DNA of 64,000 nt, taken from positions 64,001-128,000 of IMG/VR virus record IMGVR_UViG_3300005077_000489. One strand, given 5' to 3'. Both the position numbers and the translations under genes were made by a program. Positions 2-28,900 of this stretch are shown piece by piece. Position 1 is the stretch's first letter; each line of letters starts with the position of its first letter. The DNA comes from a virus. Lineage: Duplodnaviria; Caudoviricetes. Under the pieces are notes generated by a model, which made no database searches, was not told the origin of the DNA, and saw nothing but the letters and a program-made list of their open reading frames with translations.

Positions 2-175
2 AAGGCAAATAACATTCCCGTCATATTTATTACAGGGTTAGAATATAATGTAGAATTATATCAAGAAGCGAAAAAGATTAGTGAGAATGATTCTGGTGCT
101 GGAATAAACACGGAACTTGTTCGGAAGCCTATTTCTATACATAAGTTAACGGAATTAGTTGATAAGGTAGCGTAG
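2..175 (+). CDS. Response-regulator receiver (CheY-like) protein, 5'-truncated by window edge
   Basis: Not in ORF track. Frame 2 reads KANNIPVIFITGLEYNVELYQEAKKISENDSGAGINTELVRKPISIHKLTELVDKVA*, with the REC beta4 IPVIFITG and conserved KP motifs. Its stop TAG overlaps the GTG start of the kinase (TAGTG at 173-177). Confidence 0.75.
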   Translation, partial: KANNIPVIFITGLEYNVELYQEAKKISENDSGAGINTELVRKPISIHKLTELVDKVA

Positions 176-3036: not shown

Positions 3037-3053
3037 GTTAGGAGGATTTTGTT

Positions 3054-4219: not shown

Positions 4220-4223
4220 TAAT

Positions 4224-7743: not shown

Positions 7744-8721
7744 ATGCTTTATGAATTAAACAATACAGATTTTTCATCTGTAGACCCAAATCTACCAATT
7801 ATTTTTTTACAAATTACCAAAACAGGCGGATTAGCCTATTCACAAGCACTGCAATTTATATATAGAGAAAGATTCTGGTGGGGAAACCCCGAAGAGTTGG
7901 CAAAGGCTGTTAATAAAGGTCCATGTACTGTTTTTGCTGGGCATTTTAATCTGGCTTACCCCTGTTATCAGAAAATAGAAAAAAGATTTAATCATGTAAC
8001 ATTACTACAACACCCTATTTCTAGGACGTTAGCAAATTATGAGAATATTCTTATAAATCCGAGACACCCTAGTCATAATATTTGTAAAGAGATGTCATTG
8101 AAAGAAATTTTTAAGCAAGACTATTTTAGGAAAACATTTGGGTATGATGACTTGATCGGTATCTTGTCTTCTATGCGTTTTATAGGTAATAGGACCTGTA
8201 ATTTAACGCAGCAATCCAAGTTTAATCTGTCTAATTTTTTTACCTTCTTTGGTATTGCCGATTATTATACTGAGTTCTTAGACATCTCCAACCGTGTCTT
8301 TGGTTGGCCTGAATACGATTATAAGTCCTTCGATACATTATCAGAGATGAATCACGAAGATTATGCTGATTCAGAGACCCTGTCTCTTATGTCTGATGCA
8401 TACAGGCATGATATAAAATTTTATAATTTTGCTGTGGACTTGTACGAGAAAAACAGATACGCCTGGTTGGGTAAGAGTGATTTATTAGCAGAAGATGCAT
8501 TAGAATTACGAGAAATAAATATTTTTGAAGAAAGGCCGTCCCGTATTGAAGTGGGTAGCCTTGCGTCTAATAAAGAGGAAGAGATACCAGAAGGAGAAAT
8601 AATAGGAGTGGTTGACGAAGCTGCGGCGACTACCCCGGTAGATAGTAGTAAAGTTTCGTTATTCAAACGAATTCTTCTGTGGTTTGGCAGGATATTTAAT
8701 AAGAAAGGAGGAGAGGTGTAA
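7744..8721 (+). CDS. Sulfotransferase-family-2-like protein, apparently degenerate
   Basis: IIFLQITKTGG (cf. FLHIPKTAG), GHF, TLLQHPISRTLANY (cf. TxLRDPxxRxxSxY), FFGIADYY, DIKFYNFA. Both PAPS-binding motifs are altered. Acidic tail and amphipathic C-terminus. Confidence 0.6.
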   Translation: MLYELNNTDFSSVDPNLPIIFLQITKTGGLAYSQALQFIYRERFWWGNPEELAKAVNKGPCTVFAGHFNLAYPCYQKIEKRFNHVTLLQHPISRTLANYENILINPRHPSHNICKEMSLKEIFKQDYFRKTFGYDDLIGILSSMRFIGNRTCNLTQQSKFNLSNFFTFFGIADYYTEFLDISNRVFGWPEYDYKSFDTLSEMNHEDYADSETLSLMSDAYRHDIKFYNFAVDLYEKNRYAWLGKSDLLAEDALELREINIFEERPSRIEVGSLASNKEEEIPEGEIIGVVDEAAATTPVDSSKVSLFKRILLWFGRIFNKKGGEV

Positions 8722-10902: not shown

Positions 10903-13900
10903 GTGGCAGAAGAATACACCTTTAATATAAAGTTAAAAATAGATGTGGATGATTCTAAGGTATATAAACTAAAAGAATTGTCTGACAAGACTAATGATGT
11001 ACTACGTAACATAAATATGTCCCATGTGAAGGGACTTGGCTCTAGTATGTCTTTTGGGACCAGTGATAAAGACATTCAAGTTTTTAATCGTATCAAACAG
11101 GAAGTACAGAACCTAGAGGGTTATATAGATAGATTAAAGTCTGATCGAATGTTTACTCCCGCCTATATTGATGATGCCACTAAAAAGTTTTCCAAAGATT
11201 ATGATAGAAAGCAACTCAAAGAAGATTTAAAAAAAGAAATGCAGATGGAGCGGGATAGGTTATACCACTCCATTACCCATGCTACAGACAGTATGAAACG
11301 TAGTTTAGAGCAGCAGAGAAAAGAATTTATCGACTTACATAATACCTTAAAGCAAATTAAAAAACCTACCGATATATCTACATTTTCTGGTGAGCGTGTA
11401 ACTCTCAGACCAGAAAGAAGTCTGAAGGAAATGACAGCCCCTGATATTTTTACTCGTGATCTGGAATTAATGATAAATAAATTACTCTTAAAACCGAAGG
11501 CAGAATTAGGGAAAGAAATATTAAAAGTAAAAGAATACATGGATGACGTCTATTCAGAGATTAATACTGCCTTAGATAAGGTGGGTTATGAGTCACATCG
11601 TAGGGCTCAAGAAGAGGTTGGTAGGCTCCGCTTGAAAATAGAGGGACTTGCTACCGCAGGGGATATAGACCAGATAACACGTAATGTAGAATCTTCATTA
11701 AAAAGCGGGGATTTATTAAACCAAGTTAAAAAAATGCGTGAAGAGATAGTGAAAGCATCCACCGAGTTTGCTAAGGAACTGGGTGATGAGACGGATAAAA
11801 CTAGAAAGTCCTTTGCTAATTTTCAACGTAGTATTATTTTTGCCTTTAACAAACCGCAGTTCTTTGACCCCGCTGGAGAACTGTTCAGGGATGTGCAGTC
11901 ACTCAGCCAACGTAAAGGAATTGGTTCCCCTTACGGCGGTCGTTACGTTGGTGCTCCTAGGATTAAGTTTGATGAGGGCGGAATAGCCAAATATGAACTA
12001 TTTGATGTAAAGGCATTGGCAAGAGAAACTGCTAAATTAATGTCAGTAGCCGGGTTAAAGCAAGCCTTGAAGGCTGACCTAGATAGTTCCCTGCAAGATG
12101 CCTTGAACAAATATTTGGATGCTAATAAAATTTCTAAGAAAATAGAAACACTAGTTTCTTATTCTATTAAAGACCTGCAAAAGATACAACTAGATTTGCT
12201 CCGCTTTGCCGAAAAAGAAGTGGCTAGGCGAATTGGTGATGAAGAAACCAAGAGGCGTATAGAAGTATTTAATAAATATTTAGAGAGTATAACAAAACAG
12301 GCACTAGTCCTCCCTTCTATCGCTAAAAGTTCGCGTGGTGCTTCTATTATAAGAGACCCCGAACGTGGAGAATATCTGACTCTCGGTAGATATCTAGAAA
12401 CTAAACCAGGTATTAATGAATTGGATGATAGATTTATCAGACCTTTGTTAGACTATGTTAAACGTATGAATTATCGTACACAAGATATTCCGTCGCAAGT
12501 GAAAAATATTCAACGTACTGTTAAGGATTTCTGGGTAAGATCCCGCCCACAAGAAGAGCATGGTGTTGGGGTTGGTATGGAGTTAGCCGCCAGAGAAATG
12601 GTCGGTAGGATGAAGACAGCTTTTGATACGGTTGGCTCCTTCCTGGAACAGACTAGAGGACCTAAGGCTAGAAGAGCATTAACCGGAATAGATGAACTTA
12701 AGCAGCAATTCATGGTCGATTATGAGAAAGCACTGCGAGAGGCTGTGCGTGCTACTCACGAACGTGTTGCTAAAGAAGAAATAGTTACCGGGGCTAAAAG
12801 ATTACCCCCTGATTTGGAATCTCGTTTTAGGGAAGCCTTGAATTCTTTACAAGGAAAGGGTCCTAGATACCAATTATTACCAGAGCAAGTTGTTGGTTTT
12901 CTAAGGAAGGAATCTGAGAAAGTAGCACGTCAGATAGAATCTTTACCCATTGATAAATTAGAAGATGAATTAAATCGTATTGGACAGAGAGAGAAGAATG
13001 TAGTAGGTGGTACCGATTATGATGCTAGAGCATGGCAACGTGTCCTAGAGGAATTCAGTAGATACCGAAACGTAGATTTTTACAATATGTTAAATCGTGC
13101 TGCTTCTTATTCGAAAGATAGTATAAATGAATTGGAGAAGATACGTAATAGTTTATCTTCAGCCGGTCGCTTAGGAAATGAATCTTATTTTCAAGAATTA
13201 TTGCAACAACAATTTAAGAAGGTTTTTGACCCTATAAAAGAGAAGGTACCTGAAGAGCACGAAGCCATGCAGAAGCATGAGGTCTACGGTCGCCATAAGG
13301 TAATAACAATCCAGCCAAAAATACCTGGAATAGATGCCGGGCCTAGTTCCTACGGTGTTCCTGTCGATTTACAAGCTCTCAGAAGATTTATTGTTCAGAG
13401 AAATCTTGACATGGAAGAACTCTTTGAGAAGGAATATCTGAGGGGTACTGAAGCAGCCATGCGTAAATTAGGTACAACTATTGAGCGTCTTGCTACGGTT
13501 GGATTAAACGAAGCGGCAGCCGCAGGTAAACGAGATTTTGGTGATAAATTCATGGAATCTTTTTTCAGGGGTAAGAGATTACAACCTTTTGCTTCTTATG
13601 ACCCTAGGGAGACCGAGGCTTTTGGTTATTCTATAAACCCAGCTCGCCCCACCGGGGCAGCATGGGACTCCTTGGCTGGTCCAGAGTTTAATGCTATACG
13701 TTCTCGCAAAGCTCATAAATTTATCCGTAGCGGAGAGTGGGGACCGTACGGGACTGGTTTAAATGTTACTACAGTTCTTAAAGATGTTTCTGCTGGTTAT
13801 GAAGATTTATATGAGATAGGTAAAAGGTTACAGGAATTAGCTACGTTTAAATTTAAAAAACTTGTGGTTCCTAACTTGAAAGGCACAGAGGAAGAATTAA

Positions 13901-16900
13901 AAAATAGCGTTGTAAAGTATCTGCAAGAGGTTGGTCATGATATTTTTGGTGCTCCAATTAAATCTAAAGAACTAGCTGATGAAACTTATATAAAGGATAT
14001 AGTTAAGAGATGGGCACAGTCTCCTCAGGGTCCTATAGAAGAAAATATTGTTGAATTAATAAATACCTATTTGGGTCATGAAGCACGTAAGATTTCTACC
14101 GGTCAAGTTCTTAAGGGTGTAGCCTCTACAGCCTTTACTAGATTCGGTACAGAAGTAGAGGAATCGGTCAGGGAAAAAGCTAAAAAAGGATTGTATCCAA
14201 AGATAAAATTTATGGATGTGGGTGAATTATCAGATGTTCCTAAATCATTTGAAGAATTGATATCTGAGTTATTGTTGGTTCGAAAAGATTTAGACCCAGC
14301 AAAAGTTTCTAAGGCTCTAGAGATGATAAAAGGAACTCAAAATATGATTATGATGTCTTCTGACCATTTAAAACAATTAAAAATTAGTCCTATAGAATAT
14401 GGTACTGGTAGAATAATGGGGGAGGATGCTCCGAGCCTAGAGGAGCGTCGTAATTTTGTTGGTAACTTACTTGGTATAAATTTGACCTCAAAAGAAGCTC
14501 TAAGGAGTGCAGGAGATATTACTGCTCAAGTTAAAATGTTAGAGCAAGATATGGAGAGAATAAGAAGGCTATATAAAGAATCTACTGGTGGAGATTTAAA
14601 TAAAGAGGTTCCAGTAGACCTACGGATACTAGCCTCCGGGATAGGGAAGAAGTCACGTATGATCGGGGGTAACTTAGCAGAGATTATCGCAAATAATATT
14701 ATAGGAAACCTACGTTCCAGACCTTTAGAAGGTGAGACGTTAATGGAACAGATACAAAGGTCTCCCCTTGCTAAGGTTCTTGTGGAGAACACCGCCTCTG
14801 GTCGCGAAGTTATGAAATTGGCAGAACTATATAAGGGGGCTTTAGGATTACGTGGGAAGTATGGCGAAGAGTTTATATATAAACAAAATGATGCATTAGA
14901 AAAAGCGGTTGCAGGAATGATGCATGTTATGATTATGAAAGAACCTAAAGGGTGGGTACCTAAAGGTGCGGCCGAATTAGAAGCTGGTTTGTCAAAGATG
15001 ACAATAGATCCGCATGGATGGTTTGGTCTTAAGAAATTGTTTGATCCACAAGGTGCGTTGACACGTGAATTTACCATGCGGGCTTTTCCTGAAGCACGGG
15101 AAGCTGGTGCTTTCTTATCGGCATTTCGTTCATTTGCTAAATTACGTGAAGAAGAGATGACCAGAGCAGTGAAGACGGGAAAAGTTAGAATGGTCGGTGA
15201 AAAGCAATTAGTTGATGAAGACAGAGAAGATTATATTGCTCCTCTTAAAAGAAAGGCGACGGTAGCCGATCTGTCTAGAACTATTTTTGATCCATTTAAA
15301 TACGGACCTTCTATGGCTTTGGAGTTACCGGAGCCATCCGAGGATATGAAACGTTTGATAGAGGAAGAGATTAAAGAAGGAATAAAAAAAGGTATACAAG
15401 TAATGCCGGTCAAACGTTTGGTTGAAATTCCAGAGATTAGTGCACGACAGTATGTGACTTCAGAGACCGGTGAAGTATTACCCTCTACGGTATCCAGGTA
15501 TCTCTCAGAACTGGTGGATGCCACAAGAAAGTATCATATATTAGGTAGCCGAACTAATGATATAAATAAATTAGATATGCAGCGAGAGTTCGTTGGGACC
15601 GCTATTGGAGACTTCTATAATAGGATACATCCTATCAGGGACTTGAGCGTAAAACTTGATTTGCTCAGTAAACTGGAAGAGCAGGTTTTTTCCTTAGTGG
15701 GAAGTAAACCTATGCCACAGTTTTCCGGGAAATCTTCTGTCATCGCTGACGCACAGGACCCGACTAAAGTATGGTTTCCTACTATGTACAGCCGCCTCGA
15801 CGACGAAACAAAGAAATCTTTAGAAGAGGATATGCGTAAAGGTATTTCTATAAAAGATGCTTATAATAAATATTTTAAGGAGTTGGAACAATCAGTTTCT
15901 AATATAAATTTCAGGGCTCGTTTTCTTCGCGACCTTATAACGGGACCTGTAATTTATACTAAAGGAAAAGAGGATATTGGGCGTGAAGTAAAAACAGATA
16001 TATCAGAGGGTAATGATCCCCGCTATCAAAATATTAACCTAGTCCAAGATAAGATGTTATCAGATATTATCACTAACTTCAAACAGTACGAAGCTGAAAC
16101 AGATGCCTACGGGAAAACTATCGGAATAAAGTCTCGTTCTTTATTGGACTTACAGTATAATGAAATAAGACGTAATCTAAAAGAATATTATGATGAATTA
16201 TCTAATATGATATTCGGTAGAGGTATCCTGTCTGATGTAGTTTTGAAGAAGAAGATACCTGCTCTCTACCTGACAGCTCAACAACGACCTTATGACCCTA
16301 GCGAAGCAATAAAATCTGCTATAGACAAGTTAAACAAATTCAAAACAGAGGTTCCCAATGCTGAAGAATTGAAGACGGACTTAGATAAGGCTCTTCGAGA
16401 TGTAGAAACTTTCAAAGTAACAAAACCATCCCAGTGGGTCCGTCCCGGAGAAGTTCGTATAGGCGAGAGAGACCTAAAGGAATTACAAAAAGCGGGAATG
16501 GCTACTCCTGAGTTACAAAAGAGTGTGGATAGTGTTTATGCCTTGATAAATAGGCAGCCTACTACAGATGAATTTAGTTACAAGGCGATGCGGCTTACAG
16601 TGGATGATGCTCTAAAAGACCTGTCTGGAATAGCAGTAGTTCCCGGGTTACCAATAGGCGACTATCCAGTTAGTTCTAAGATGGAAGAGGCTTACAAAGC
16701 GTTAGAGGATTTACGTAGCAAAAAAGTTAAGGCTATAGAAGAAGAACTTTCTAAGTCTAAAGGTAAAATGACTTCTACTGTCACTAAGTTGCAGAGGGAT
16801 ATAGATGAGATAGACCGAGCGTCCAAGGACTTGCGGCCTATGTACCATGAAGCCTCTTTGGGTTTAGATTATGACGGAGATATGATTTCTATTCATGCTG

Positions 16901-19900
16901 CTACTGTAAAAGAAGCAAATGAGGAATTGAAGAGAATTCATGATATGCAGATGAAAGAGTATGGAACCACTAGAAGATTTTTGCATGAACAACTTAGTTA
17001 TGTTCCAGAATCAAAACGTTCTATGGGTGCCAAAGGTACTGAATTATCCGATGAAGAAATTATGGCTGTAGAAAAAATGCGAAGAAGTGCCTCTCCTACA
17101 TGGCAAGAGATGGACATTGTGAGTGACATTTCTAAGCAAGCTAAGAAGAATTTGTTAGATATCCATGCTACTACTCTTCCCGAGATAGCAGAAGATTCAT
17201 TAAAGCACTTTGTACACAAGGTTGATATGGGACAAGGTTATGAGGCTTTTAACCGTATAGGTTTCTTGTATCGTGGTGCCACGGCTAAGGATTTGGGTAT
17301 TACCCCTAAATTACATGAAACTTATAATTTATTATTAGGAGAGTTTTTGCGTGATACAATCCAAAAAGTCATAGGTGGAAAACACGGTTCGGCTGGTTCG
17401 GATATGAGTCCTATAGTGCAACAAGCTTTTTTCACTGGAAATATAGACGCGGTAGTAGATGCCCTGGACAAAGGGGATGGCGGTTGGGGAAGTTTTAAAG
17501 GTCAATCTGGTAGTAATCAACCACTATTTCAAGAGATAGAAGATAATTTAAGAGAATATCGTTTAAGATATCTGAAGCCAATGTCTAGAGATCAAGTAAA
17601 GAAGGAAGCCGAGTCCTATGGTATTTCCACATTTATGAAAGGTAGGGAACAACTAATAGAAGAGATAGTAGGTAAAACCTCTTTCAGAGCGATGTTTGAG
17701 AATGTATTTGACCAAGTAAGACGTATGGCAGTGGCTAATATAAAAGAATTATATCGTACAGGATTGGCAGGAGATTCTTCCTTATCTAAAAAGGGCTCCA
17801 TGGGCCTCGCCAAATTATTGGCTGGTACTGAGGGGTTCGAAGGAGAGACACTACAGACCTTAGGATTAAGAACTAAATTTAAATTTAATGAAGGAGACTT
17901 TGAGGCATTTGTAGACAAACAAGATGTTACTGATAAGATAATGGGAGTGTTGAAGGATAAATTAGGTAATGTCTCCAAACAGGAGATGGCTTTTCAAATA
18001 GCCGCAGCTGGAGAAGGGATTGCCAAGGTTCTACGTGGAGAACCCGGGAAACTAAAGACAGAGATAATAGAGCCAGGGTTTAGTACCGCTGGATTATATC
18101 GCGGTTTACAACCCATGTATAAACTGAAATCTTCCGGCGGGGCGGAGATGGCTGTTAGTTCTTATTCTAAACGCTCCGAAGGAGAAAATCAGTATACCCC
18201 CGGTGGTCCTGCCCTTTCTTATGCAGAAGTATTAGATTATGTATTGCGTAATAAGGCAGGAAAAAATATAGAAGTAGGTCCTTCTTTAGGTACCTTCACT
18301 AACCCGAGAGAGCAAAAAGCCTATGAATTTGTAAGTCCTGCTATTCAAGCCTACGAGGATTTTGAAAAAGCATATAATAAGATTATGTTGGTAATGGACA
18401 AGAACCTGTATGCCTTGGAGGGATTGCTCGCACAAGTACAGACTTTTGGTAAGGAAACCGCGGGTTTTAAAGGTGAATCTGCCAGAGCTGGTCGTTACGT
18501 AATGTATGATAAGGATACGCAACAAGTCTTCCTGGATTCTGCTGTAAAGTCTGCTTTTGAGGATAATAAGCGTGCTCTTTCTTTGGCTAGAAATGCTGGT
18601 GAGGCTAAAGAGGCGGAAGATAAACTTTTTGATACTGTTAGAAGAGTAAATGAATTATTAAAAAGGGGTGCAGCTTTAAAGTTTATAGATATTGATGAAA
18701 GCAGGAGAGCAGACAACCTCAGAAGTACCATAGATAAACTAGCTGACCCTTCTTCTAGATGGTCATTAAAAGTAGATAGTCTACTAGAGAGAATGGTCTA
18801 TGATAAGAAAGAATTCGGGACATTAATACGTAAGTGGTTAGCAGATGTCGGTCGGGGTGATTTATTAGATAGGAGTAATGTGGAGATAACAGCCGAGTTA
18901 AGGAAGCACAAGGGTATAAGGAAGGAAGCTCTAGAAGAAGCAGCATCTTATATAATTTCTGGTAAGGGTAATATAGCAATTGGTTTGAGACCCTTGATTA
19001 GAGATGCACGTTCCGTGGATATAAAGGAAGAGATATCCAAGGGTCTTATAGGGAAGATAAGATCGGAGGACTTCTCAAAATCTTTCTCACCCTTATTTAT
19101 GGAAAGTTGGAAAGAAGCTGTCATGCGTAATGCACAAACATTAAGTGCTTCGGACTGGAGAAGTATTTATAAGGCTCATCCAGTGTTACGAGATATGCAG
19201 GCTCCTGGTACTTCGTCATATGAAGACGTTATTAAACAGTTACGTTCCGAGGGTATTTATGGTGGTAGTCGTGGGGTCACCCATTTTATAAATAATATAT
19301 TGAAAGAAAGACAAGGACAAATTTTAGAGCACCTTGGCGTGGAGAAACCTGAAGATTGGGAAACCCTTAGACTAAGCCAAGTGGAAAATAAAATGAAATC
19401 CGGTATATTAGAGGCGGCGGAATCTACAAGGTGGCCATTCAGACCCCGTGCCGGTGGAGGGGTATATTTAGAGGATATATTGGACAAACCGGTTCACAAA
19501 GTTAGAGAAGATGTGGAAAACATATTTGATAGTGCTTTTGACCTATCCCCGGAAGACTGGAAACAAATATTTAACTTTGATGAAAAGGCACAAAAAATAG
19601 CGATGAATGCTGAAGAGCCCCTGAAGGCTTTATATGAAGCCGGTATGTACGGTGAAAATCGTGGATACACAAGATACATTAATATGATATTTAAGAAACG
19701 TATGGAGCATATTCTAAATGAATTAGGGCAGGAAGCCCCTGATTTCTATACCATGCGTTTCCAAAAATCTAAACAAGAGTTTCTTAGTTCTCTCGAAGAA
19801 GCAGCATTGGATAATTTATTAAAAGGAACTCCGTCAACCGGAGGACCTTTTGGTGGTAAGCGGTTTACTCCCGGAGAGGCTTTTGGGGAGCGGGCACCAG

Positions 19901-22900
19901 AGAACATAAGGAGAGCATCTAGAGGTTTCGTTCCTGCTGATTACCCTCATATTAAACCTATTTATGATTTTCCTAAATTCTTAGATACAGAATCTTCGGT
20001 ACAATACAAAAGTCATGGTGACCAAGTAAAAATGAGTGCTGTACCTCTAAGGTGGGGTAATATAGAAATAGGTTATGGTACTAAAAACAAACCATTAGAT
20101 CCAGCTACAGCTAATGCTAGATATAGGCCTTTTATAGAAGCTACCCAGGACCTAGTCCCAGTAATGAAAGATTGGGTAAAAGAGAACAAGCATCGCATAG
20201 ATTTATATGGTGAGTTTGGCGGGTTAAAAGATAAATTAGTATGGTTTGATGCTAAGGTAGCAAACAAAACTTTGAGTCCTGATGATTTTAAAAAGTTAGC
20301 TGAAGAGTTAAATCTGAAAACTACTGAAGAATTATATAGAGGACCAGTAACGAAAGAGATAGTTGACAAAGTATATCGTCAAGTCACTCCCTTCAGAAAA
20401 TTAGAAGAAGGCGTTGTGGCTAAAGGATTGGAGATTGATGAAAGAACAGGCTTCCCTAGAATGGCTAAGTTTAAGACTAAGCCTTATCTAGTGGGGGAAG
20501 AGACGCGTTATCCTTGGCAAGACTGGGGTAGTGCAGAAAGGAAAATAGAGGAGAGGCATAAGAAACTTATGGAGAGAGCATTTTCTCCATTTGATAACAT
20601 TGAAGAAGGGATAGAACAGGACCCTACAAGATCTTTTACACCCACGGAAGCCCAGCGTAGAGAAGGCTTATATCCAGAAAATTGGCCGGTTGTAGAAACT
20701 ACCAAAAAACGTGTTGAAGAGTATCTTAAAGGTTTAGATGATAAATTTTATCAGTCTGCCGAGAGAGCGAAAGAATTTCCTAAAGGTACTAAGTTCTTAG
20801 TACAAGCCCCGGGTGTAGAGCCCATTCCTTCCTATGCTAAGGATGCTGTGGTTATTTCTAAAGAAGAATTAAGGAAAACCATCTTTGGTAAAGGGATGCC
20901 AGACTTACCTTATGACCCTGTTCTTGTATTAAATTCTAGAAGACAGGTTCCTAGGTACCCTGAAGCAATTCCTATTTCTAAGGAACGCGGTTTTATGTTT
21001 CCTGGCGAGGCTAAAGAGGGTGATGTAGGTAGGTTTGTCATACACCAGCATGATGCCTTAAGGGCGGGTCCCCACCATGACATGCGTATTGAGTTAGGTG
21101 GTCAATTACAGTCTTGGGCAGTTCCAGAATTTATTCCGGAAAAGATGGGTGAACGTAGGTTAGCCATAGGTCCTACGGCACACCATGCCATTGACTACTA
21201 TCAGAAGGGAGATTACGATATTCCCAAAGGTTTTTATGGTGCCGGTCATATGTCAACATTTGATACGGGTAAAGCTACTGTAGAAAGTGTAAAAGAAGGT
21301 TATGTTACTGTACGATTAGAGGGAGTAAAAGGACTAGCTGATGGTACTTATTCTATCATAAAATATGAACCTAAAGGAGAAGATACAAGAAAAGGACAGT
21401 GGTTAGTGTCTAAGGTTAGACCATTGTCAGAAAGAGACCCAGAAAGAGCAAAGAAATTATACGGTTTTAGTCCATCCATAGAGTTAGATGACGAATTGGG
21501 GGCAGGAGAGGGTAGGTATGGACAGGGTAATATAAGGTTATTTACCCCTGGTAATAGAGCAGAGATGCGGGCTTTTATGAATGTATTACAACATGAAAAA
21601 GGACACGCAGCAATAGATTTTGCAGCACCTAATATTGCTAGGGATATAATGGCTGGAAAACAATTTCCTGGTGTTGATACCAAGAAACTGCAAAGTTATT
21701 ATATGCAGAAGTATGGGGACCGCGGAGATGATGAGGAGGCAGCAGCGAATGCATTAGAAGAGGCTATTGCAGGCGGGCTACGTACAGACGAAGACCAAGA
21801 AATATTAGACGAAATTAGCAAACTGCAAGATGTCATAGGTGAAAAAGCCGGAATGGCATTTGCAGGTACATCACCACAGAACGAACTTTCCTATATTAGA
21901 AAACTATTCTCACCAGTACAACAACCGTACACAGTTTATACAGATGCAGGCTCTAGAGGTAACCCCGGTCCTGGGGGTGCTGGTGCCGTAGTATTTGACC
22001 CACAAGGTAAGAAGGTTTCAGAACTTAGTAGATACTTAGGAGAAACCACAAGTATGGCTGCAGAATATCAAGGGCTTATTATGGGATTAGAAGAAGCCCT
22101 TAAACATTCTGCCAAAAACATTCAACTTAAGTCTGATTCACAAGTAATGGTGGGGCAGATGAGAGAGGAGTTTAGAGTTAAGAATGAACAAATAAAAGAA
22201 TTAAAAAGACAAGCAGACTTACTTAAAGCACAATTCGAAGGTTTTAATATAGACTATATTCCCAGAGAACAAAATAAATTAGCAGATAAATTGGCTAACA
22301 GGGCTATGGACTCATATCTTAAGTCATATTCGCCTGCCGAAGATGACGTAGACCGTTTTGGTAGTCCTATTATTTATGATTATAATAAATTGACAAGTAG
22401 CCCTAATTGGCTTCCCCGCGGTATGACTGCTAAGGCTGTTTCCGCTGCTGTAAATGGACAATTTATAGGTGCGGCATCTTATTCAACTGCCTCTCCTGAA
22501 TACACAGGGTTTGGGGAATTATCTATAAAACCGGAATATAGGCGTAGTAGTAGAGTTGCTGGTAATTTGATGGAGAAGGTAATAATAGATTTAATCAATA
22601 GTGGTAACTTCAAACATACACGTCCTCTCACCCCAGTCGCTGATACTCCAGAAGCCATCTCTTTTTGGGAGAGTATAATAAAAAGAACACAGAAGCCTTC
22701 AAGAAATATAAAAGAGGCATTCTTAGCAAATAATGTGACTCCTGATGATCTTTCCATGGTTGCTGGTAGATTACAGGCTGAAATAGACATAACCAAGGCA
22801 TCTAAGTTTACTGATGTAATAAAGAGGATCATTGAAGAACCTCATAATTTAGGGGAAGAACTTTCTAAACTGACAGAGACTAATCAAGCAAAAGTAATTA

Positions 22901-25900
22901 GAGCTACCCAGGCAGTGTTGGCTAAAACAAATGATGCCTCTTATCCAAAGATAGGTATTAAACCTACTGCTTTTTCTGAGGGATTGGATTTTAAGTCTAA
23001 ACTCCGCTCTGAAATAACATCATTATATAATTACGGTAAAGAAGGTGCCAAACTATTTTTTGGGTCTTCTGGTTCTGGTTCTTCCATAACTGAATTTACA
23101 AAGAATATAGCAAGGGGTATATGGGATGACCTAGGTAGATTGGGAAAATTCTCATTAGGTACAATGCGCGGTTTGAGGGCGTATGCACCTGTAGAAGATT
23201 TAGTTCGTAGTGGTGAGATAAAGATTGATGACACCCCATTTAGAGCCCGGGGGCTAACGTCCGAGAGAGTCAGAAACTATTTAGGTAGAGGATATGCTGT
23301 TGGTATGGGTGGGGGCGGTAATATATATATGCCTCCTGATATTATACAATCATATCAGAATGCCACTGGCGGACTTAAACAACAGTATGGTCAATCTATA
23401 ATGAAAACTTATTTTCATGAAAAAAGGCATCTTGATATCGATGCTGCTCCAGAGAAAATAAAGGAAAAGTGGAGACAACTTGCATCTGACAAGAATACTG
23501 ATATAGGTAAATTAGTTAGTAGCTTTATAAATGAGGCTATGCTTAGCACTTCCAGGGACGTATATAAGAAACAATTTGAGGATGCTCAAAAGAAATATGG
23601 AGAAAATATAGGTTCCGATTTCTTAAATTCTTTTGCTGCTAGGTGGGAAGCCTTACAAGAGATAATTGCTGGTCATCCGGAGATGCGTTCTGCTAGTAGT
23701 AATCAACAGTTAGTACAAAAAATTCGCAGTGATTTCTATGGAGATGTAAATAAGCCTATACCTGGATTTGGTCCCAGTGCTAGTGCCTTTTCTCCTAATT
23801 TAACAGATTATAAAAATTTCAAGAACATTAAAAAGGGCTACGAAGAAGAGTCGGATACTGGACTATTACATAAGAAAAAGGTAGCTTTAAAATTTGGGAT
23901 TCCGCCATTAAAAGGTCTGTTGGGAGAAGATATCGATATTTCGGAATCTCTACAATATTTAATGCATCCGGCTATGAGGGAAAGAAGACTTATGGGACTC
24001 CCCCAAAGAATGATAGATTCAAGAAATCCTTACTTAGCTGGGATGTTACGTAAAGGTTTTGGTGCTGGTGCTGGCTTATCCCTAGAAGGAGAACTAGGAG
24101 TAGGTCCTTACAAAGTAGAATTAGGTGGTGTAGGCTTTGGCAGATATGGTAAGAAAGATGAGGAATTTTTTGCTGATAAACCCAGTGAGATAATAGGACT
24201 TTCTAGTTTGGAACCCGTCAAACGTCCAATTGATTACGTGGGTTTGAGCCCCGGTGCCGAACACGGTTTGTTGGCCGCCCTTAGGGCAAATACTAACGCT
24301 CTACTACGTTCATCTTTTATTACGAAGGATATGCCCGTTGGGTTACTTCCTACTATTATGCAGGACATAACTAAAGCGTACAGGGTTCCTGCTACTGATG
24401 AGACCCTAGGCAGTGCTTTTAGAAAATTTTTTGGCGGCACTTACGACCTTGCAAAGGGTACTATGAAAGGTGCTATAGGTCTTCCTTATACATTAATAAA
24501 ATCTCCTTTGGATATATTTAAATCCGGTAAGGATACAGATTCCAGGTTTTGGACTGGTGTTGGTCAACAATTCAATGGTATTTCTGCGGGATTATCAGAA
24601 CTTTCTACATACAAGAGTGGTGCTTTCTTGGATACAGATTTAAAAAGTGCCTATTCAACCAAATCAAAATCTATTTATGATATAAAGAATATTGTAGATA
24701 TGGAGTACGATAAATTAGTAAGAAAGTTAGAATTTGGTTTGGCAGTGATGGAACCCGCAGATTTAAAGCGTAATATATCTGATGTATTTACGGCTTATTC
24801 GGACACGATGGATAATATGTTTAAAAACCCGTCTAAAGCCTTAGCCGAGGAGGCTGCTAAACAAAAAGCAATACTGGAATCAGTATTGGGAAACCAATGG
24901 GAGACTCCCCCAGCGACACAGCGATTAATACGTGGTGGTGCAACGCTGGGTCATGGGGTGTCTTCTATTTATAATCGATTACTGAAAACTTTGGAAGAAA
25001 TAGGTTATGCTACGGGTGGTGTCGGAAAGGGAGTAGGCTATTTAGCAACACACCCTAAAGACATATTACCCGGAATTATGTCTTCTATCCGAGGACTATT
25101 ACCAGGGAAGGATATTACTGGTGTCGGGTTGTTGGGTGAAACTTCCAGACAATTAGAGCAAATCTATGGTACCGGGATGTTAAGAACTTCTGATGTAGTA
25201 AAGTTAGCCGGGTACGGTGTATCACCAGAACAAAAAGTTGGGGGGTTACTCTCGCGTGCTTCAAAATATCAACCTGTGACAGCCGCGGACCGTGCTATGA
25301 GAGAAGTTCTTGGTCTCAGGGAAACCGGTGCAATTGTGGGAGATATCACTAATACAAAAGGAATCTTGGGTGCTCTAGGGCATGTTGTGGTCAAACCCAT
25401 ATCTGCTATTGGTGAAACTATGACAGATATGGGTAAGGCGTTTGGTTCCTTTAATTTAGTAGAGATGGTAAAAGCTCCTCTAATCGGTCTCTTAAAGCTA
25501 GCCCCAGTGATCGGTCATACCGTTGCGGGTGTTCAAGAATTTAGGGAAGAAGTAGAGAAGGGTGCTTCCCCTTACACATCATTTGTTAGCGAAGTCGGAG
25601 AACAAATCATAGAGGGAATTACTATTGCATTAGGTGCCGCCGCAGGTACTAGAGTTGGTCGTCCTGCAGCCGCCGGGTTAGCTAGTATAGGTGGTAGGGG
25701 TCCTATGGCAGCCGCTAAATATTTACCAATTGCCACTGGTATAATAGGTAGTATTCTAGGAGGAATTGGTGGTGGTAGAATAGGGGAGTCTTTTGAAAAA
25801 GGTATGTTCTCTATGGTGGGACAGACCTCTCCTAAGTCTGTAGCACGTTCTATTTGGGAGCAAGAACGTGATAAGCGATCTCTAGAGGAAGAGGGTCTAG

Positions 25901-28900
25901 ATAAAATACTACCGGATTACCTGGATGAATCCAAAAAAGAAGAATTAGCCAATATGCAAAAATGGTTGGTCCGTGGTGGCGTAGTTGGCGGACTATATGG
26001 TGGTATGAAGGTTCCTCTTCAAGGTGGAACACTTTCACGTTTAGTCTCTATGGTCGCGGGTCCTACTCTAGGTTATCTCGGTGCCAAAAAATTAGGAGAT
26101 GTCACGATGGGTCGTGCTTCAGAGAAGGCTAGAGAAGACTATATGGAAAAGACTCTTGGATTTCGATCTTTTTCTCCATTATCTTCACAAGAGAAATGGG
26201 ATATTCCTAGGGAAATACGCGGGGTTACGTCTGAGAAACTCAAAGGAAAAACCTTAGATGAAATAATTTCTACTTTCAAAGAGTTACAATCTGAAACGTT
26301 TAGTGGTAGCAACTTAGATAAGCAGAAACTGTTGACATCACAGAAGGCTGTTACCCAGTTTATGTCCGAGATCTATCTTAGCAGAATTGAAGAGTTGAGA
26401 GATCAACTGAATGTCGCTGCTAAAAGTGGTAATCAGAATTTAATGGCAAAACTCCGAGCAGAGATTGATAGGTATATAGTTTTTTATATAGGGAATGTAC
26501 TCAAGTCTTCTACTGGTGCACACGCAGCCGCCGATGCTTTTAGGGTGCGGTCTATCGGTGGTTTTGTAGGTTCAGAGGACTATGAAGCACGTTCTACAGG
26601 TCGTCCCCAATCTTTCGATGAGGTTATAAGTCTCGATAAATTCTTGGAGAGGGGTCTTAGCGGTGTATCTAGGAAGGCTGTAAATCTATTAAGGAATTTA
26701 TCTGATACGGGTGCTTCTCCAAGGTCTATATATCAAGAAATAATGCCAGGAATTCTGAAGTCTTCTACGAATATCCCAAGAGACGTTACGGCTGTGCATA
26801 CATATTTGAAATCTGTAGTTCATGAACTAGGACAAACCCCAGATGTTAATATAGACCAGTACCGTTATTGGAAGTCATTGGAAGAATATTTCCGGGCCAC
26901 CGCAAAGCAATACAGAGGAAGTAGTCGGTTCGACTTTGGAGATCTACGTTCTGCTGCTCCGATAACACCAGTTGGTTTACGACCGGAGGACCAGGAGACC
27001 TTTAATGCAAAAACTGTAGATTACTATAAAAAAATGTTGCAGGCCAACCCAATGTTTAAGGAGGGTGCTACTGTACCACTAGAACTTAAAGTTACGGATG
27101 AGGCTGGTAATGCTTTAAAAAATATAAGAGTTGACTTAACAAAAACAAAACACGCGGCGGACGGCGTTTCCATGTCCATAACAGATATGAATAAAGTTAT
27201 GGCACAGAAAAACACTCTGTTTGGTGCAGTAGAACTAACTTCTAGATTTATTTTGGCGGGAGCAACTGTGGGTGGGTTAGTTAATGAACTAAGGACTATG
27301 GCTTCCACTATTGCTCAAGTAGAGTCTGGTATGATGGAACTAAGAAAGGTTATGGAACCCTCTATAACCAACTTTGACGAGATACGTAACTCTGCTCTTA
27401 ATATGGCTAAAGAAATGGGTGTTGGTATTAATGATGTCATACAATCTATGGTAGTTTTCGGGCAACAGGGTGATACACAAGCACAAGTAATAGAGAAAGC
27501 GAGAACATCTGTTATGGCTGCCGCTATAACTGATATGAAAGCTGCAGAAGTCACTGAATATCTTACATCTGCGGTAAAGCAATATGGAGAAGAGATAAAG
27601 GAAACACAACGTTTTCTGGATTCTTGGATAAAGGTTGACGTACAGCATGCCATAACGGCTACTGAATTATCCAAAGCAATGCTGCGTGTTGGTTCCGCTG
27701 CTAAAGAAGCTGGAGTCGGTTTCCATGAATTAAATGGTATTGTGACTGGTATTGGCTCTGTTACTAGACAAACCGGTAGAGAAGTTGGTACTGCTCTACG
27801 TTTTATTTTTAGGAATCTCCAAACTACTCAAGTTAAAAACTATTTGCGTAATATACTAAATATTGATACGTTGTTACCGAGCGGTTCTATAAAACCGGCT
27901 ATGAAGATATTTGATGAATTACAGGCAAAATGGCAGAATTTCTCTGATGCTCAAAGGATGCATGTTGCACAATTGGTTTCCGGTGCTAGACATTATAATG
28001 CTTTTCTAGCAATGATGAATAACTACTCAGAAGTATTAACTGCTACACAAGATTCTATACACTCTGAAGGTTATGCTCAAGCTCGTTTGAATATGCAAAT
28101 GGATACGCTAACTAAGAAACTAGCACAAGTCAGAGCGGCTTCAGAAAGATTATATGTTGACTTTGGTAAACTAGCCCTGGGTCCAATGAAACTCGTAGCG
28201 GATGCCACAACTTCTATGATTACTGCTTTTACTCTAATCCCTGATACTGTAAAACAAGCTATATTAGCATTAGGTACTTTTGCCGCTTTTTCCGGTAAAA
28301 TAGAAAGTGTTATTTCCGGTTTGCAAAATTTTGGGGTGGCTAGCGGTATGTCAGATACCTTTTCTAATTTTATGTCTTTTGCTACCTCCCCAATTTCTTC
28401 AGTAATGAAAGCGTTCTCTTCTGTTCAGGGGGTCTCTGGGTTATCAGAGGTAACAACTACATTAGGAAAGATGGCATTCATTGGTATCTCTGCTGGTAGA
28501 TCTTTTAATAGTTTGTTCAGCAGTATAGGCAAAGGCGCAGGAATTGCCCTTGGTTCTGTGTCACTACTCGCTGCTGCAGTTGGAGCTCTGAGTGATTCAC
28601 ACACAGGAATGTTTAAATTGGCTGGTGCTTTCGGGCTTATAGGAGCTTCTGCTCTTATTAGCAGCGGTATTATAGGGTCCCTAAGCGGCTCCACTACAGG
28701 TTTTATTGGTTCCTTAGCACCTCTGGCTGTAATTGCTACTGTTATCTATAAAAACTGGGATAAGTTATCAGACGTTTTTGGCGGAGTAGGAAATAGTATA
28801 GAACGTTTACAGAAACAGACTGAAGGTATAGGGAGTATCACTAGCAAGCGTTTAGAAATTAGTGAAATAACTACAATATTTGGTAAGGCGAACTTATTAG

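What the first reader, a model, noticed from the sequence alone, without database searches (positions are those of the whole stretch)
20008..21420. Adjacent Rnl2-like ligase and LigD 3'-phosphoesterase: an injected heal-and-seal module
Seen: ligase motifs I, III, IIIa, IV and V, followed ~190 aa later by a PE domain with its metal-binding His/His/Asp and the Arg/His/Tyr positions. Known: LigD PE removes 3'-phosphates and trims 3'-ribonucleotides to give ligatable ends; T4 uses Pnk plus Rnl1 to undo PrrC tRNA cleavage. Inference: repair of host-defence cuts in tRNA/mRNA or in incoming DNA at the moment of injection. No 5'-kinase motif was seen, so the substrate may already carry a 5'-phosphate.
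Basis: partly seen in the sequence, partly recalled or inferred. Interest (0 to 1): 0.8.

Follow-up and report, generated by a model that had tools for sequence, protein, structure and literature searches.

The report
RNA ligase and end-healing enzymes in tape measure
Inside a 13,616-residue phage tail tape-measure protein lie a real, conserved RNA-ligase domain, an RNA-binding-type domain and a 3'-end-cleaning phosphoesterase, which probably enter the bacterium with the phage DNA to mend broken RNA or RNA-tipped DNA ends, although that function is inferred and not shown.

Summary
Residues 3011-3226 of a 13,616-aa ORF (window 10903-51753) are a minimal Rnl2-like RNA-ligase nucleotidyltransferase domain. 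It scores above the Pfam PF09414 cut-off in all four orthologues, has motifs I (KxHG), III, IIIa, IV and V, and its fold matches T4 Rnl2 best (Z 9.0). Residues 3377-3510 are a LigD-type 3'-phosphoesterase (PE) with all six active-site residues.

Residues ~3256-3350 model as an ASCH/PUA-like fold (Z 9.6 to YqfB), joined to PE through a conserved N-peptide.

The order ligase, PE, RNase HI is kept at the same offsets in two other huge phages (256 kb and 545 kb). A fourth relative, an 82-kb metagenome contig, was checked only for the ligase-to-PE module. Selection on the module is strongly purifying.

The host ORF carries a strong tape-measure domain. It has no cysteine in its first ~12,000 residues (~163 expected), and neither do the stretches read from the relatives' ORFs. 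That fits a protein that is ejected or translocated. There is no kinase motif in the ORF.

Injection, cooperation between the domains and anti-defence RNA repair all remain inference. First readers of this scan noted the same module in other genomes. I class it as a new variant of known heal-and-seal and polyvalent virion proteins. Interest 0.65.

The parts
10903..51753 (+). Giant ORF of 13,616 aa that hosts the module: a tape-measure-type polyprotein.
   Evidence: ORF list. PhageMin_Tail PF10145 at aa 5496-5690, 89.9 bits. No Cys in the first ~12,000 aa against 1.36% in the other ORFs. Relatives carry open frames of >6,800 aa with the same layout.
19927..19935 (+). F3009-V-P linker motif immediately before the ligase N-terminus (F-[SVT]-P-A-D-Y-P in all relatives).
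   Evidence: Alignments. The following residues align with the native N-terminus of T4 Rnl2.
19933..20580 (+). Minimal Rnl2-like ATP-dependent RNA-ligase nucleotidyltransferase domain, aa 3011-3226. Nucleophile K3036 is at 20008-20010.
   Evidence: PF09414 above cut-off in 4 of 4 orthologues. AF2 model pLDDT 70. Foldseek top 38 PDB hits are all RNA ligases. VIA Z 9.0 to T4 Rnl2, 8.3 to NgrRnl, 8.2 to REL1. Best viral match is a 204-aa phage RNA-ligase-domain protein, E 1.2e-7. ESM atlas: 86 of 100 hits are PF09414 clusters.
20581..20667 (+). Variable linker, aa 3227-3255, with A-F-S-P (3227) and S-F-T-P (3245) motifs.
   Evidence: Fastest-evolving part of the module (pN 0.35-0.49), with indels in L003 and L005. 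Motif list.
20668..20952 (+). ASCH/PUA-like domain, aa ~3256-3350.
   Evidence: pLDDT about 80 within the whole-module model. VIA wide: YqfB 9kyf Z 9.6 (88 of 102 aligned, rmsd 2.5), PH0355 Z 8.9, ASCH 3iuw Z 8.4, with further ASCH and PUA-like rows below. No Pfam, atlas or PDB-sequence support.
20953..21030 (+). Conserved pre-PE peptide, aa 3351-3376 (R-Y-P-E-A-I-P-I-S-K-E-x-G-F-M-F-P). Candidate counterpart of the PE N-peptide.
   Evidence: Highly conserved. Several cellular PE hits extend into query residues ~330-370. Role of the N-peptide in PaePE and MbaPE: PMC3082917.
21031..21432 (+). LigD-type 3'-phosphoesterase (PE) domain, aa 3377-3510. Active-site residues H3383, H3391, D3393, R3395, H3428 and Y3432.
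   Evidence: PF13298 at 58.5 bits. TIGR02777 at 79.7 bits. PDB phmmer hits 3p43, 3p4h, 3n9b and 2lj6. Foldseek hits to PE structures and to LigD models.
21466..21474 (+). G-F-S-P motif (aa 3522) closing the ASCH-PE unit.
   Evidence: Conserved as GFSP in L002, L005 and P0002. Motif list.
21925..22311 (+). RNase HI domain, aa 3675-3803. The next enzymatic neighbour in the same chain, and the only RNase H found in the record.
   Evidence: PF00075 and PF13456. NCBIfam RNase HI models. Single hit in the genome. Same order in L002 and L003.
27388..27972 (+). PhageMin_Tail (tape-measure) domain, aa 5496-5690, followed by three hydrophobic segments at aa 5875-5950.

Best explanation
The stretch is a three-part nucleic-acid end-repair cassette inside the enzyme-cargo region of a giant tape-measure polyprotein. 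It has two units.

(1) A minimal Rnl2-like RNA ligase (aa ~3011-3226). It should self-adenylylate on K3036 and seal 3'-OH/5'-phosphate nicks whose 3'-OH strand is RNA.

(2) An ASCH/PUA-like RNA-binding or modified-base-binding domain fused through a conserved N-peptide to a manganese-dependent LigD-type 3'-phosphoesterase (aa ~3256-3510). The phosphoesterase should remove 3'-phosphates and trim 3'-terminal ribonucleosides to give a ligatable 3'-OH.

Conserved [FY]-[STVA]-P linkers bracket the two units, so they are probably released as separate proteins by proteolysis. The chain contains a tape-measure core and avoids cysteine almost completely. The cassette is therefore most likely packed in the virion and delivered into the cell with the DNA. 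There it would heal and seal RNA ends, or RNA-terminated strands in RNA:DNA hybrids, early in infection, with the neighbouring RNase HI acting on the same class of substrates.

Shown: the ligase and PE domain identities, the intact catalytic residues, conservation under purifying selection, placement in a protein with a tape-measure domain, and cysteine avoidance. The ASCH/PUA-like assignment rests on one predicted model only.

Inferred: enzymatic activity, proteolytic release, ejection, cooperation between the units, and the substrate.
For: Ligase identity.

PE identity and the complete active site: read against PMC3082917.

ASCH/PUA-like fold. ASCH proteins act on N4-acetylcytidine, and a 2026 preprint title says they act on tRNA (titles and abstracts of PMC6972931 and bioRxiv 10.64898/2026.02.27.708502).

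Conservation. The module occurs in four lineages at 55-73% identity. Synonymous sites are saturated (pS 0.55-0.91, mostly 0.7 or more), while pN is 0.08-0.29 in the ligase and PE domains, up to 0.40 in the ASCH-like domain, and higher in the linker. The order ligase, PE, RNase H sits at the same offsets in L002 and L003.

Tape-measure context: PF10145 at 89.9 bits followed by hydrophobic segments.

Cysteine avoidance: 0 Cys in ~12,000 aa against ~163 expected, and 0 in 6,887, 6,832 and 2,222 aa of the relatives' ORFs.

Linker motif: [FY][ST]P occurs 17 times against 4.4 expected. Ten of these cluster at domain borders in aa 2700-4300, and the motifs are positionally conserved in otherwise variable linkers.

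Not simply the replicative ligase: relative G001 keeps the module although it has its own NAD-dependent DNA ligase.

Archaeal minimal PEs are the closest solved relatives, and CkoPE prefers single-stranded 3'-ribonucleotide ends (PMC3258152).
Against: There are no biochemical, proteomic or expression data.

No 5'-kinase is present in the ORF. The classical anti-defence case, with 2',3'-cyclic phosphate and 5'-OH ends, therefore cannot be completed by this module alone. A 182-aa AAA_33 P-loop kinase ORF elsewhere in the genome is only a candidate.

The ligase lacks the Rnl2 C-terminal domain. From my own knowledge of the T4 Rnl2 literature, not from a paper read here, T4 Rnl2 needs that domain for full nick sealing.

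The ASCH-like assignment rests on one AF2 model from a shallow (8-sequence) alignment and has no sequence support.

Folded globular domains would not fit in a tail-tube lumen, so it is unclear where and in what state the cargo is carried.

PE enzymes are characterised as DNA-break end-healing enzymes, which favours the DNA-side rival.

The upstream RNA-polymerase region claimed by other notes could not be confirmed here.
Confidence: 0.5

Rival explanations
1. DNA-side function. The cassette processes the incoming phage chromosome in an NHEJ-like way. PE trims 3'-phosphates or ribonucleotide tails at nicks, gaps or ends, RNase HI removes RNA from hybrids, and the ligase seals nicks that carry a 3'-ribonucleotide. 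The targets would be virion DNA nicks, restriction or CRISPR breaks, or genome ends to be circularised.
For: PE is the end-healing component of bacterial NHEJ and acts on primer-templates with 3' ribonucleotides (PMC3082917). The atlas fold search places the whole module nearest LigD-type architectures. RNase HI lies next in the chain. This is the only ligase of any searched family in the 211-kb record. No kinase is needed for nuclease breaks that carry a 5'-phosphate.
Against: The ligase is of the RNA-ligase family (PF09414, KxHG), not a DNA ligase. DNA ligases score clearly lower (Z ~6 against 9.0), and PF01068 is not matched. No Ku and no LigD polymerase partner were seen (no such family in the Pfam scan). 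An ASCH/PUA-like domain points to RNA.
Confidence: 0.2
2. Not injected. The polyprotein is cut up in the producing cell, and the ligase, PE and RNase HI serve phage replication there. RNase HI would remove primers, PE would trim residual ribonucleotides and the ligase would seal lagging-strand junctions. Fusion to the tape measure would then be only an expression or stoichiometry device.
For: RNase H plus ligase is the classical lagging-strand maturation pair (my own knowledge). The record (86% complete) and relative G002 (97% complete) show no other ligase, and the record shows no other RNase H.
Against: The 545-kb relative has its own NAD-dependent DNA ligase and still keeps the module. A replication enzyme encoded within a tail structural gene would presumably be made late. 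Near-total cysteine avoidance over ~12,000 aa, enzymes included, is hard to explain for cytoplasmic replication enzymes. Rnl2-type enzymes seal all-DNA nicks poorly (established knowledge of T4 Rnl2, from memory).
Confidence: 0.12
3. The domains do not cooperate as heal-and-seal. Each is an independent counter-defence effector in a polyvalent chain. For example, ASCH-PE might act as a phosphodiesterase against RNA-based or nucleotide-based defence molecules, or against modified tRNA ends, while the NTase domain adenylylates or ligates some other target.
For: Polyvalent virion proteins string together functionally independent domains (PMC5512222). Conserved linker motifs separate the ligase from ASCH-PE. 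There is no kinase.
Against: A ligase adjacent to a 3'-end-healing enzyme is the recurrent logic of repair systems such as LigD and T4 Pnkp/Rnl. The order and spacing are strictly conserved in the relatives.
Confidence: 0.13
4. The domains are decayed or purely structural relics inside a very long tape measure and have no enzymatic role.
For: Sequence similarity of the ligase to characterised enzymes is very low. Tape measures tolerate insertions (my own knowledge).
Against: Every catalytic residue of both enzymes is invariant in four lineages whose synonymous sites are saturated, and pN/pS is far below 1.
Confidence: 0.05

Closest known systems
T4 RNA ligase 2 (Rnl2) and T. brucei REL1; minimal ~200-aa phage PF09414 'RNA ligase domain' proteins
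   Same: Covalent nucleotidyltransferase fold. Motif I is KxHG as in T4 Rnl2 (KIHG). Motifs III, IIIa, IV and V are present. These are the best structural matches (1s68 Z 9.0; REL1 Foldseek E 1e-5; a 204-aa Myoviridae protein E 1.2e-7, TM 0.55-0.59).
   Different: No Rnl2 C-terminal domain (PF18043). The segment between motifs IIIa and IV is shortened. No sequence hit to any solved ligase. It is embedded in a 13,616-aa structural polyprotein and is not a free enzyme.
LigD 3'-phosphoesterase superfamily (PaePE, and the archaeal stand-alone CkoPE and MbaPE)
   Same: PF13298 match. All six essential residues (2 His plus Asp for the metal; Arg, His and Tyr for the phosphate) are present. A conserved N-peptide precedes the barrel. 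It is closest to the minimal archaeal PEs.
   Different: It is not part of a LigD: there is no PF01068 ligase, no LigD polymerase and no Ku. It scores below the TIGR02777 equivalog cut-off (79.7 against 144). It has a two-residue insert between the metal histidines. It is fused to an ASCH/PUA-like domain and paired with an RNA-type ligase.
T4 Pnkp + Rnl1 and bacterial Pnkp/Hen1 RNA heal-and-seal systems
   Same: A 3'-end-healing activity placed next to an ATP-dependent RNA ligase in a phage or conflict context.
   Different: No 5'-kinase. The 3' healing is by a LigD-type PE, whereas T4 Pnkp uses a HAD-type and bacterial Pnkp a calcineurin-type phosphatase (from memory). The ligase is Rnl2-like, not Rnl1-like. 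The enzymes are encoded inside a virion structural protein.
Polyvalent proteins of phages and conjugative elements (Iyer et al. 2017, PMC5512222), and injected giant enzymes such as N4 vRNAP
   Same: Many enzymatic domains in one huge polypeptide associated with the virion, presumed to be delivered with the DNA for early conflict functions.
   Different: A term search of that survey found no LigD, no tape measure and no RNase H. Its only ligase passages say that the 2H domains of polyvalent proteins never associate with RNA ligases. None of the typical polyvalent domains was found by Pfam here. The carrier is a tape measure protein.
Tape measure proteins with embedded enzymatic domains (for example the peptidoglycan-hydrolase motif in mycobacteriophage TM4 TMP)
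   Same: Catalytic cargo inside a tape-measure-domain protein (PF10145).
   Different: The known cargo is cell-wall hydrolases that act in the envelope. Here the cargo is cytoplasm-directed nucleic-acid enzymes, and the protein is many times longer than typical tape measures.

Membership tests
ATP-dependent RNA ligase, PF09414 (Rnl2/Rnl3/Rnl5 clade of covalent nucleotidyltransferases) | Profile match above the curated threshold | tested here: met
   35.3 bits for the window domain alone, and 45.9, 38.9 and 29.8 bits in the orthologues; cut-off 27. Also seen.
ATP-dependent RNA ligase, PF09414 | Motif I lysine nucleophile (KxHG as in Rnl2) plus motifs III, IIIa, IV and V | tested here: met
   K3036-S-H-G, E3104, F3115/D3116, EEGVVAK3174 and K3189/K3191/K3193 are invariant in 4 sequences. 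Motifs I, III and IIIa align to T4 Rnl2 K35/H37, E99 and F119/D120. Motifs IV and V were assigned by inspection and by Pfam coverage to profile position 170 of 171.
ATP-dependent RNA ligase, PF09414 | Nucleotidyltransferase fold | tested here: met
   AF2 model pLDDT 70, pTM 0.66. Foldseek top 38 PDB hits are all RNA ligases. VIA Z 9.0, 8.9, 8.3 and 8.2.
Rnl2 proper (T4 Rnl2 / REL1) | Rnl2-type C-terminal domain (PF18043) needed for full nick sealing | tested here: not met
   No PF18043 hit. Motif V is followed only by one helix and then a variable linker.
ATP-dependent RNA ligase | Self-adenylylation and phosphodiester formation | not testable with these tools
   Needs biochemistry.
LigD 3'-phosphoesterase superfamily (PF13298) | Profile match above the curated threshold | tested here: met
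   58.5 bits against a cut-off of 31.1; 65.6 bits in the genome scan.
LigD 3'-phosphoesterase superfamily | Six essential active-site residues (His, His, Asp for the metal; Arg, His, Tyr for the phosphate) | tested here: met
   H3383, H3391, D3393, R3395, H3428 and Y3432 align with CkoPE H9, H15, D17, R19, H51 and Y55 (alignment; residue roles from PMC3082917). All are conserved in every relative.
LigD 3'-phosphoesterase superfamily | Eight-stranded beta-barrel fold | tested here: inconclusive
   Foldseek probability 1.00 to 3p43, 3n9b and 3p4h, but the PE part of the model has pLDDT 40-60 and low TM.
Bacterial LigD (multifunctional NHEJ enzyme) | PE fused to a PF01068 DNA ligase and a primase-polymerase, with Ku as partner | tested here: not met
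   No PF01068 and no Ku in the record. No LigD primase-polymerase family in the Pfam scan of the ORF. TIGR02777 scores 79.7 bits, below the equivalog cut-off of 144.
ASCH / PUA-like superfamily | ASCH-type beta-barrel fold | tested here: met
   VIA Z 9.6 (88 of 102 aligned, rmsd 2.5) to YqfB, Z 8.9 to PH0355 and Z 8.4 to 3iuw, with several more ASCH or PUA-like rows. This rests on a single model with local pLDDT of about 80.
ASCH / PUA-like superfamily | Sequence-profile membership (Pfam ASCH) | tested here: not met
   No Pfam hit at E<=1. No atlas hit. No PDB sequence hit apart from a chance-level eL29 match at E 0.2.
T4-type RNA heal-and-seal (Pnkp + ligase) | 5'-polynucleotide kinase (P-loop) | tested here: not met
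   No Walker A motif in the 13,616-aa ORF. The only unlinked candidates are AAA_33 ORFs elsewhere in the genome.
Phage tape measure protein | TMP core domain and hydrophobic segments | tested here: met
   PF10145 at 89.9 bits, aa 5496-5690. Hydrophobic segments at aa 5875-5950.
Phage tape measure protein | Position between tail chaperone and distal tail genes; presence in the tail and ejection at infection | tested here: inconclusive
   The flanking ORFs have no PHROG or Pfam tail-gene assignments. Virion presence cannot be tested here.
Polyvalent proteins (Iyer et al. 2017) | Multiple conflict-type enzymatic domains in one virion-associated polypeptide | tested here: met
   Ligase, PE, RNase HI, two HExxH motifs and a TMP core lie in one ORF.
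Polyvalent proteins (Iyer et al. 2017) | Characteristic domain repertoire described for the class | tested here: not met
   Pfam finds only the RNA-ligase, PE, RNase H and TMP families in the ORF. A term search of the paper finds no LigD, RNase H or tape measure.

The most novel reading that the evidence does not exclude
A cysteine-free, 1.5-MDa tape-measure polyprotein ferries a ready-made RNA end-repair kit into the cell at the instant of infection. The kit is a minimal Rnl2-like ligase plus an ASCH-guided LigD-type phosphoesterase, with RNase HI alongside, released at [FY]-[STVA]-P sites. It would be the first natural pairing of a LigD-type PE with an RNA ligase. It would also be the first nucleic-acid repair enzymes delivered through a phage tail, able to act before any phage gene is expressed against RNA-cleaving or hybrid-targeting defences.
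Probability: 0.3. Interest if true: 0.85.

Novelty: new variant of a known kind. Interest (0 to 1): 0.65.

Why it matters
PE enzymes are known as DNA-break end-healing enzymes of NHEJ, and the role of stand-alone PEs is still open. A PE wired to an RNA-type ligase, a PUA-like domain and RNase HI in a phage particle protein would give PE a new biological setting: ends of RNA or of RNA:DNA hybrids.

It would also extend the idea of virion-delivered 'polyvalent' counter-defence proteins to repair enzymes carried by a tape measure. If the enzymes are active, they are compact (~215 aa ligase; ~275 aa ASCH-PE), cysteine-free and could be useful reagents.

The finding also gives a concrete, testable handle on how a 13,616-aa tail protein is processed and what it carries. 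The candidate cleavage motifs sit exactly at domain borders.

Tried and rejected
Searches that gave nothing:
- tblastn of the module against 50,697 GenBank phages found no match.
- phmmer and a 3-sequence profile of the ligase domain against PDB sequences found nothing relevant.
- A word-seeded profile search of 5.8 billion proteins with the ligase domain found none.
- The full HMMER search of 1.84 billion representatives returned only five fragments of the same clade. Everything else was PE-only hits that flood the list, so distant ligase relatives could not be seen.
- The metagenome scan added one relative. A second viral scan added none.
- hhalign of the ligase profile against T4 Rnl2 gave probability 0.3%, which is not significant, although it aligned motifs III and IIIa correctly.
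- The atlas searches of the middle domain and of the claimed RNA-polymerase region (aa 900-2100) gave no usable hit, so the RNAP claim in other notes is untested here.

Weak model. The first AF2 model of the whole module was poor (pLDDT 52). I used it only for the well-modelled ASCH-like part and for Foldseek hits supported by sequence.

Readings considered and rejected:
- Capping-enzyme reading of the NTase domain: rejected. Capping enzymes score Z ~5, the motif is KxHG, and the Pfam and atlas hits are all RNA ligase.
- DNA-ligase reading: disfavoured.
- An ENA contig in which the frame is split into overlapping genes was considered as evidence for separate genes. I rejected it because one break falls inside the ligase domain (P0005 and P0002), which looks like assembly frameshifts.
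- The weak eL29 similarity of the middle domain (E 0.2) was judged to be chance.

No complex prediction was run, because no binding claim is made.
Full report
CONTEXT. The window is bases 64001-128000 of a 211,229-bp IMG/VR virus record, estimated 86% complete. The finding lies inside one open frame, 10903..51753 (+), of 13,616 aa. Coordinates 20008-21420 are aa 3036-3506. Pfam on the whole frame finds four domains: RNA_ligase PF09414 (aa 3033-3176), LigD_N phosphoesterase PF13298 (aa 3381-3485), RNase H/RVT_3 (aa 3675-3801) and PhageMin_Tail PF10145 (aa 5496-5690, 89.9 bits). Nothing is found in the last 4,400 aa. The carrier is therefore a protein with a tape-measure domain of extraordinary length.

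IS THE LIGASE REAL? The first Pfam score was marginal (28.7 bits, cut-off 27). Scanned alone, the domain scores 35.3 bits. The orthologous domains from three relatives score 45.9, 38.9 and 29.8 bits and cover almost the full model.

A language-model feature search returned PF09414 clusters for 86 of 100 hits, with a best score of 0.96.

An AlphaFold2 model of aa 3011-3236 (pLDDT 70, pTM 0.66) was searched two ways:
- Foldseek against PDB: the top 38 hits are all ATP-dependent RNA ligases, led by REL1 1xdn (E 9.8e-6) and T4 Rnl2 2hvr (E 2e-5). DNA ligases appear only lower down.
- The Foldseek-independent aligner: T4 Rnl2 1s68 at Z 9.0 (165 residues aligned), NgrRnl at Z 8.3, REL1 at Z 8.2, and DNA ligases at about Z 6.

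Against viral models, the best match is a 204-aa phage 'RNA ligase domain' protein (E 1.2e-7, TM 0.55-0.59).

Motif I is Y-K3036-S-H-G, the KxHG form of T4 Rnl2 (K35-I-H37-G). Motifs III (G-E3104-F) and IIIa (F3115-D3116) align with T4 E99 and F119/D120. Motifs IV (EEGVVAK3174) and V (K3189-F-K3191-T-K3193) are read by inspection and lie on the two adjacent strands of the model. All of these residues are invariant in the four full-length relatives.

The domain is a minimal one. There is no Rnl2 C-terminal domain: only a helix follows motif V before a variable linker. Ordinary sequence searches find no solved or named relative.

IS THE PE REAL? Yes, and clearly. PF13298 scores 58.5 bits and TIGR02777 scores 79.7 bits. 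phmmer against PDB gives E 1.2e-15 to Methanosarcina PE (3p43), 2.5e-14 to Korarchaeum PE (3p4h) and about 3e-12 to Pseudomonas LigD PE. Read against the mutational and structural work on these enzymes (PMC3082917), H3383, H3391 and D3393 correspond to the manganese ligands, and R3395, H3428 and Y3432 to the phosphate contacts. All six are conserved in every relative. The score is below the LigD equivalog cut-off, and there is no PF01068 ligase and no Ku. It is therefore a member of the PE superfamily and not part of a LigD.

WHAT LIES BETWEEN THE TWO ENZYMES. The ~190 aa between them are not a spacer. After a variable linker (aa 3227-3255) comes a well-conserved block. In the whole-module model this block is the best-predicted part (pLDDT about 80). 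It matches ASCH/PUA-like structures: E. coli YqfB at Z 9.6 (88 of 102 residues aligned, rmsd 2.5 A), PH0355 at Z 8.9, ASCH 3iuw at Z 8.4, and further ASCH, ATP-sulfurylase N-domain, Lon-N, TruB-PUA and YTH rows. There is no sequence-level support, so I hold this assignment at about 0.6.

ASCH proteins act on N4-acetylcytidine, and a 2026 preprint title says they act on tRNA (titles and abstracts of PMC6972931 and the preprint). PUA-like domains in general bind RNA or modified bases (PMC7641849).

A 26-aa strongly conserved peptide (aa 3351-3376) joins this domain to the PE barrel. Several cellular PE hits extend into it, so it is probably the counterpart of the functionally important PE N-peptide.

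CONSERVATION. The module occurs at 55-73% identity in a 545-kb and a 256-kb IMG/VR genome and in an 82-kb metagenome contig, and also as gene-call fragments. In the two IMG/VR genomes the frame starts ~9 kb upstream and runs for more than 6,800 aa with ligase, PE and RNase H at the same offsets. Synonymous sites are saturated (pS 0.55-0.91, mostly 0.7 or more). pN is 0.08-0.29 in the ligase and PE domains, up to 0.40 in the ASCH-like domain, and 0.35-0.49 in the linker. These are selected, functional domains and not relics.

EVIDENCE BEARING ON DELIVERY.
(i) The tape-measure core is followed by hydrophobic segments. That tape measures leave the tail at infection is established knowledge.
(ii) The giant frame has no cysteine in its first ~12,000 residues (8 in total, all near the C-terminus). 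Other ORFs of the genome average 1.36%, so ~163 would be expected. The relatives have 0 Cys in 6,887, 6,832 and 2,222 aa, while their neighbouring ORFs have cysteines. From my own knowledge, such avoidance is typical of proteins that are translocated unfolded or that pass through an oxidising compartment. This is indirect support for ejection. It is not proof.
(iii) [FY]-[ST]-P occurs 17 times against 4.4 expected, and ten of these sit at domain borders in aa 2700-4300. At orthologous linker positions the motif is kept although the surrounding sequence varies. The one before the ligase (F-V/S/T-P) is followed by residues that align with the very N-terminus of free T4 Rnl2. This suggests proteolytic release of 'ligase' and 'ASCH-PE' as separate proteins. 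Two HExxH motifs in the same chain (aa 3564 and 4172) are candidate proteases. I confirmed its enrichment and its conservation but not any cleavage.

WHAT IT MOST LIKELY DOES. The parts are an RNA-type ligase, a 3'-end healer specific for 3'-phosphates and 3'-ribonucleotides, a PUA-like domain and RNase HI. They point to strands that end in ribonucleotides: broken RNAs, or RNA stretches in RNA:DNA hybrids. I commit, at about 0.5, to a virion-delivered heal-and-seal cassette for such ends.

It needs a 5'-kinase, and the ORF has no P-loop. The genome has two unlinked AAA_33 kinase-like ORFs. One, of 182 aa, was confirmed by Pfam, but its substrate is unknown. Ends with 5'-phosphate and 3'-OH or 3'-phosphate would be sealable without a kinase.

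RIVALS.
- An NHEJ-like role on the incoming phage DNA (0.2). PE biochemistry, the RNase H neighbour and the absence of any other ligase in the record speak for it. The RNA-ligase family assignment and the absence of Ku speak against it.
- A cytoplasmic lagging-strand maturation role without injection (0.12). It is weakened by the 545-kb relative, which keeps the module alongside its own NAD-dependent ligase, and by the cysteine avoidance.
- Independent effector domains that do not cooperate (0.13).
- Inactive relics (0.05).

COMPARISON WITH WHAT IS KNOWN. It works like known heal-and-seal systems (T4 Pnkp/Rnl1, LigD) and like polyvalent virion proteins, but it fits none of them as a member. 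The ligase is a C-domain-less PF09414 enzyme. The PE is outside LigD. There is no kinase. A term search of the polyvalent-protein survey found no LigD, no RNase H and no tape measure, and its ligase passages state that its 2H phosphoesterase domains never associate with RNA ligases. In the jumbo-phage survey, the passages found by searching for 'RNA ligase' and 'phosphoesterase' list RtcB, Rnl1, Rnl2, 2H, cRec and HAD enzymes as free genes and do not mention PE. A literature search for tape measure plus LigD or RNA ligase found nothing relevant.

Other first-reader notes of this scan describe the same module in two other genomes. These are probably the relatives I found independently.

VERDICT. 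This is a new variant of a known kind, and it makes a worthwhile biochemical target.

Noticed in passing
window 10903-51753; L002:935-21595; L003:1025-21520; L005:1-6666: Near-total cysteine avoidance. The giant ORF has 0 Cys in its first ~12,000 aa (~163 expected from the genome's other ORFs), and there are 0 Cys in all 15,900 aa read from the three relatives' ORFs, while flanking ORFs contain Cys.
   Followed up: partly
window 19081-26178 (aa ~2700-5100 of the giant ORF): The [FY]-[ST]-P tripeptide is about 4-fold enriched (17 against 4.4 expected) and clusters at domain borders. It is positionally conserved in relatives inside otherwise variable linkers. These are candidate polyprotein cleavage sites.
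   Followed up: partly
window 21592-21606 and 23416-23430 (aa 3564 and 4172): Two HExxH motifs lie in similar sequence contexts (hEKxH..ID). They are possible zincin proteases within the same chain. There is no Pfam hit.
   Followed up: no
window 19003-19900 (aa ~2700-3000): A duplicated ~130-aa module of unknown function lies directly upstream of the ligase (…G.YG..RG.T.[FY]IN.I.K.R…). One relative (P0005) has a ~230-aa insertion between it and the ligase.
   Followed up: no
window 175-3036 (+): A 953-aa hybrid sensor protein is encoded by the phage: response-regulator receiver, three PAS domains, GAF, HisKA and HATPase_c.
   Followed up: no
G000:C1:9995-10543 (-) = L008:496-1044 (-): A 182-aa AAA_33 P-loop kinase-family ORF (42.7 bits). 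It is the only candidate for a polynucleotide 5'-kinase seen in the record. A second, weaker AAA_33 hit lies at G000:C1:199013-199222.
   Followed up: partly
G001:C1:122139-122888 (545-kb relative of L002): The 545-kb relative encodes a separate NAD-dependent DNA ligase (683-aa frame, PF01653 at 297 bits). The window's record and the 256-kb relative show none.
   Followed up: no
L009 (ENA ERZ25039603 contig_78987): On this 24-kb contig the homologous giant frame is called as six or seven overlapping genes. One break falls inside the ligase domain, which most likely reflects assembly frameshifts and not real gene boundaries.
   Followed up: partly
window 7744-8721 (+): A 325-aa ORF just upstream of the tail region has a weak Sulfotransfer_2 hit (E 0.0018, below cut-off).
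   Followed up: no
window 13600-17202 (aa 900-2100): The region that other notes call a two-barrel RNA polymerase gave no Pfam hit and no atlas hit here. The claim remains untested.
   Followed up: partly
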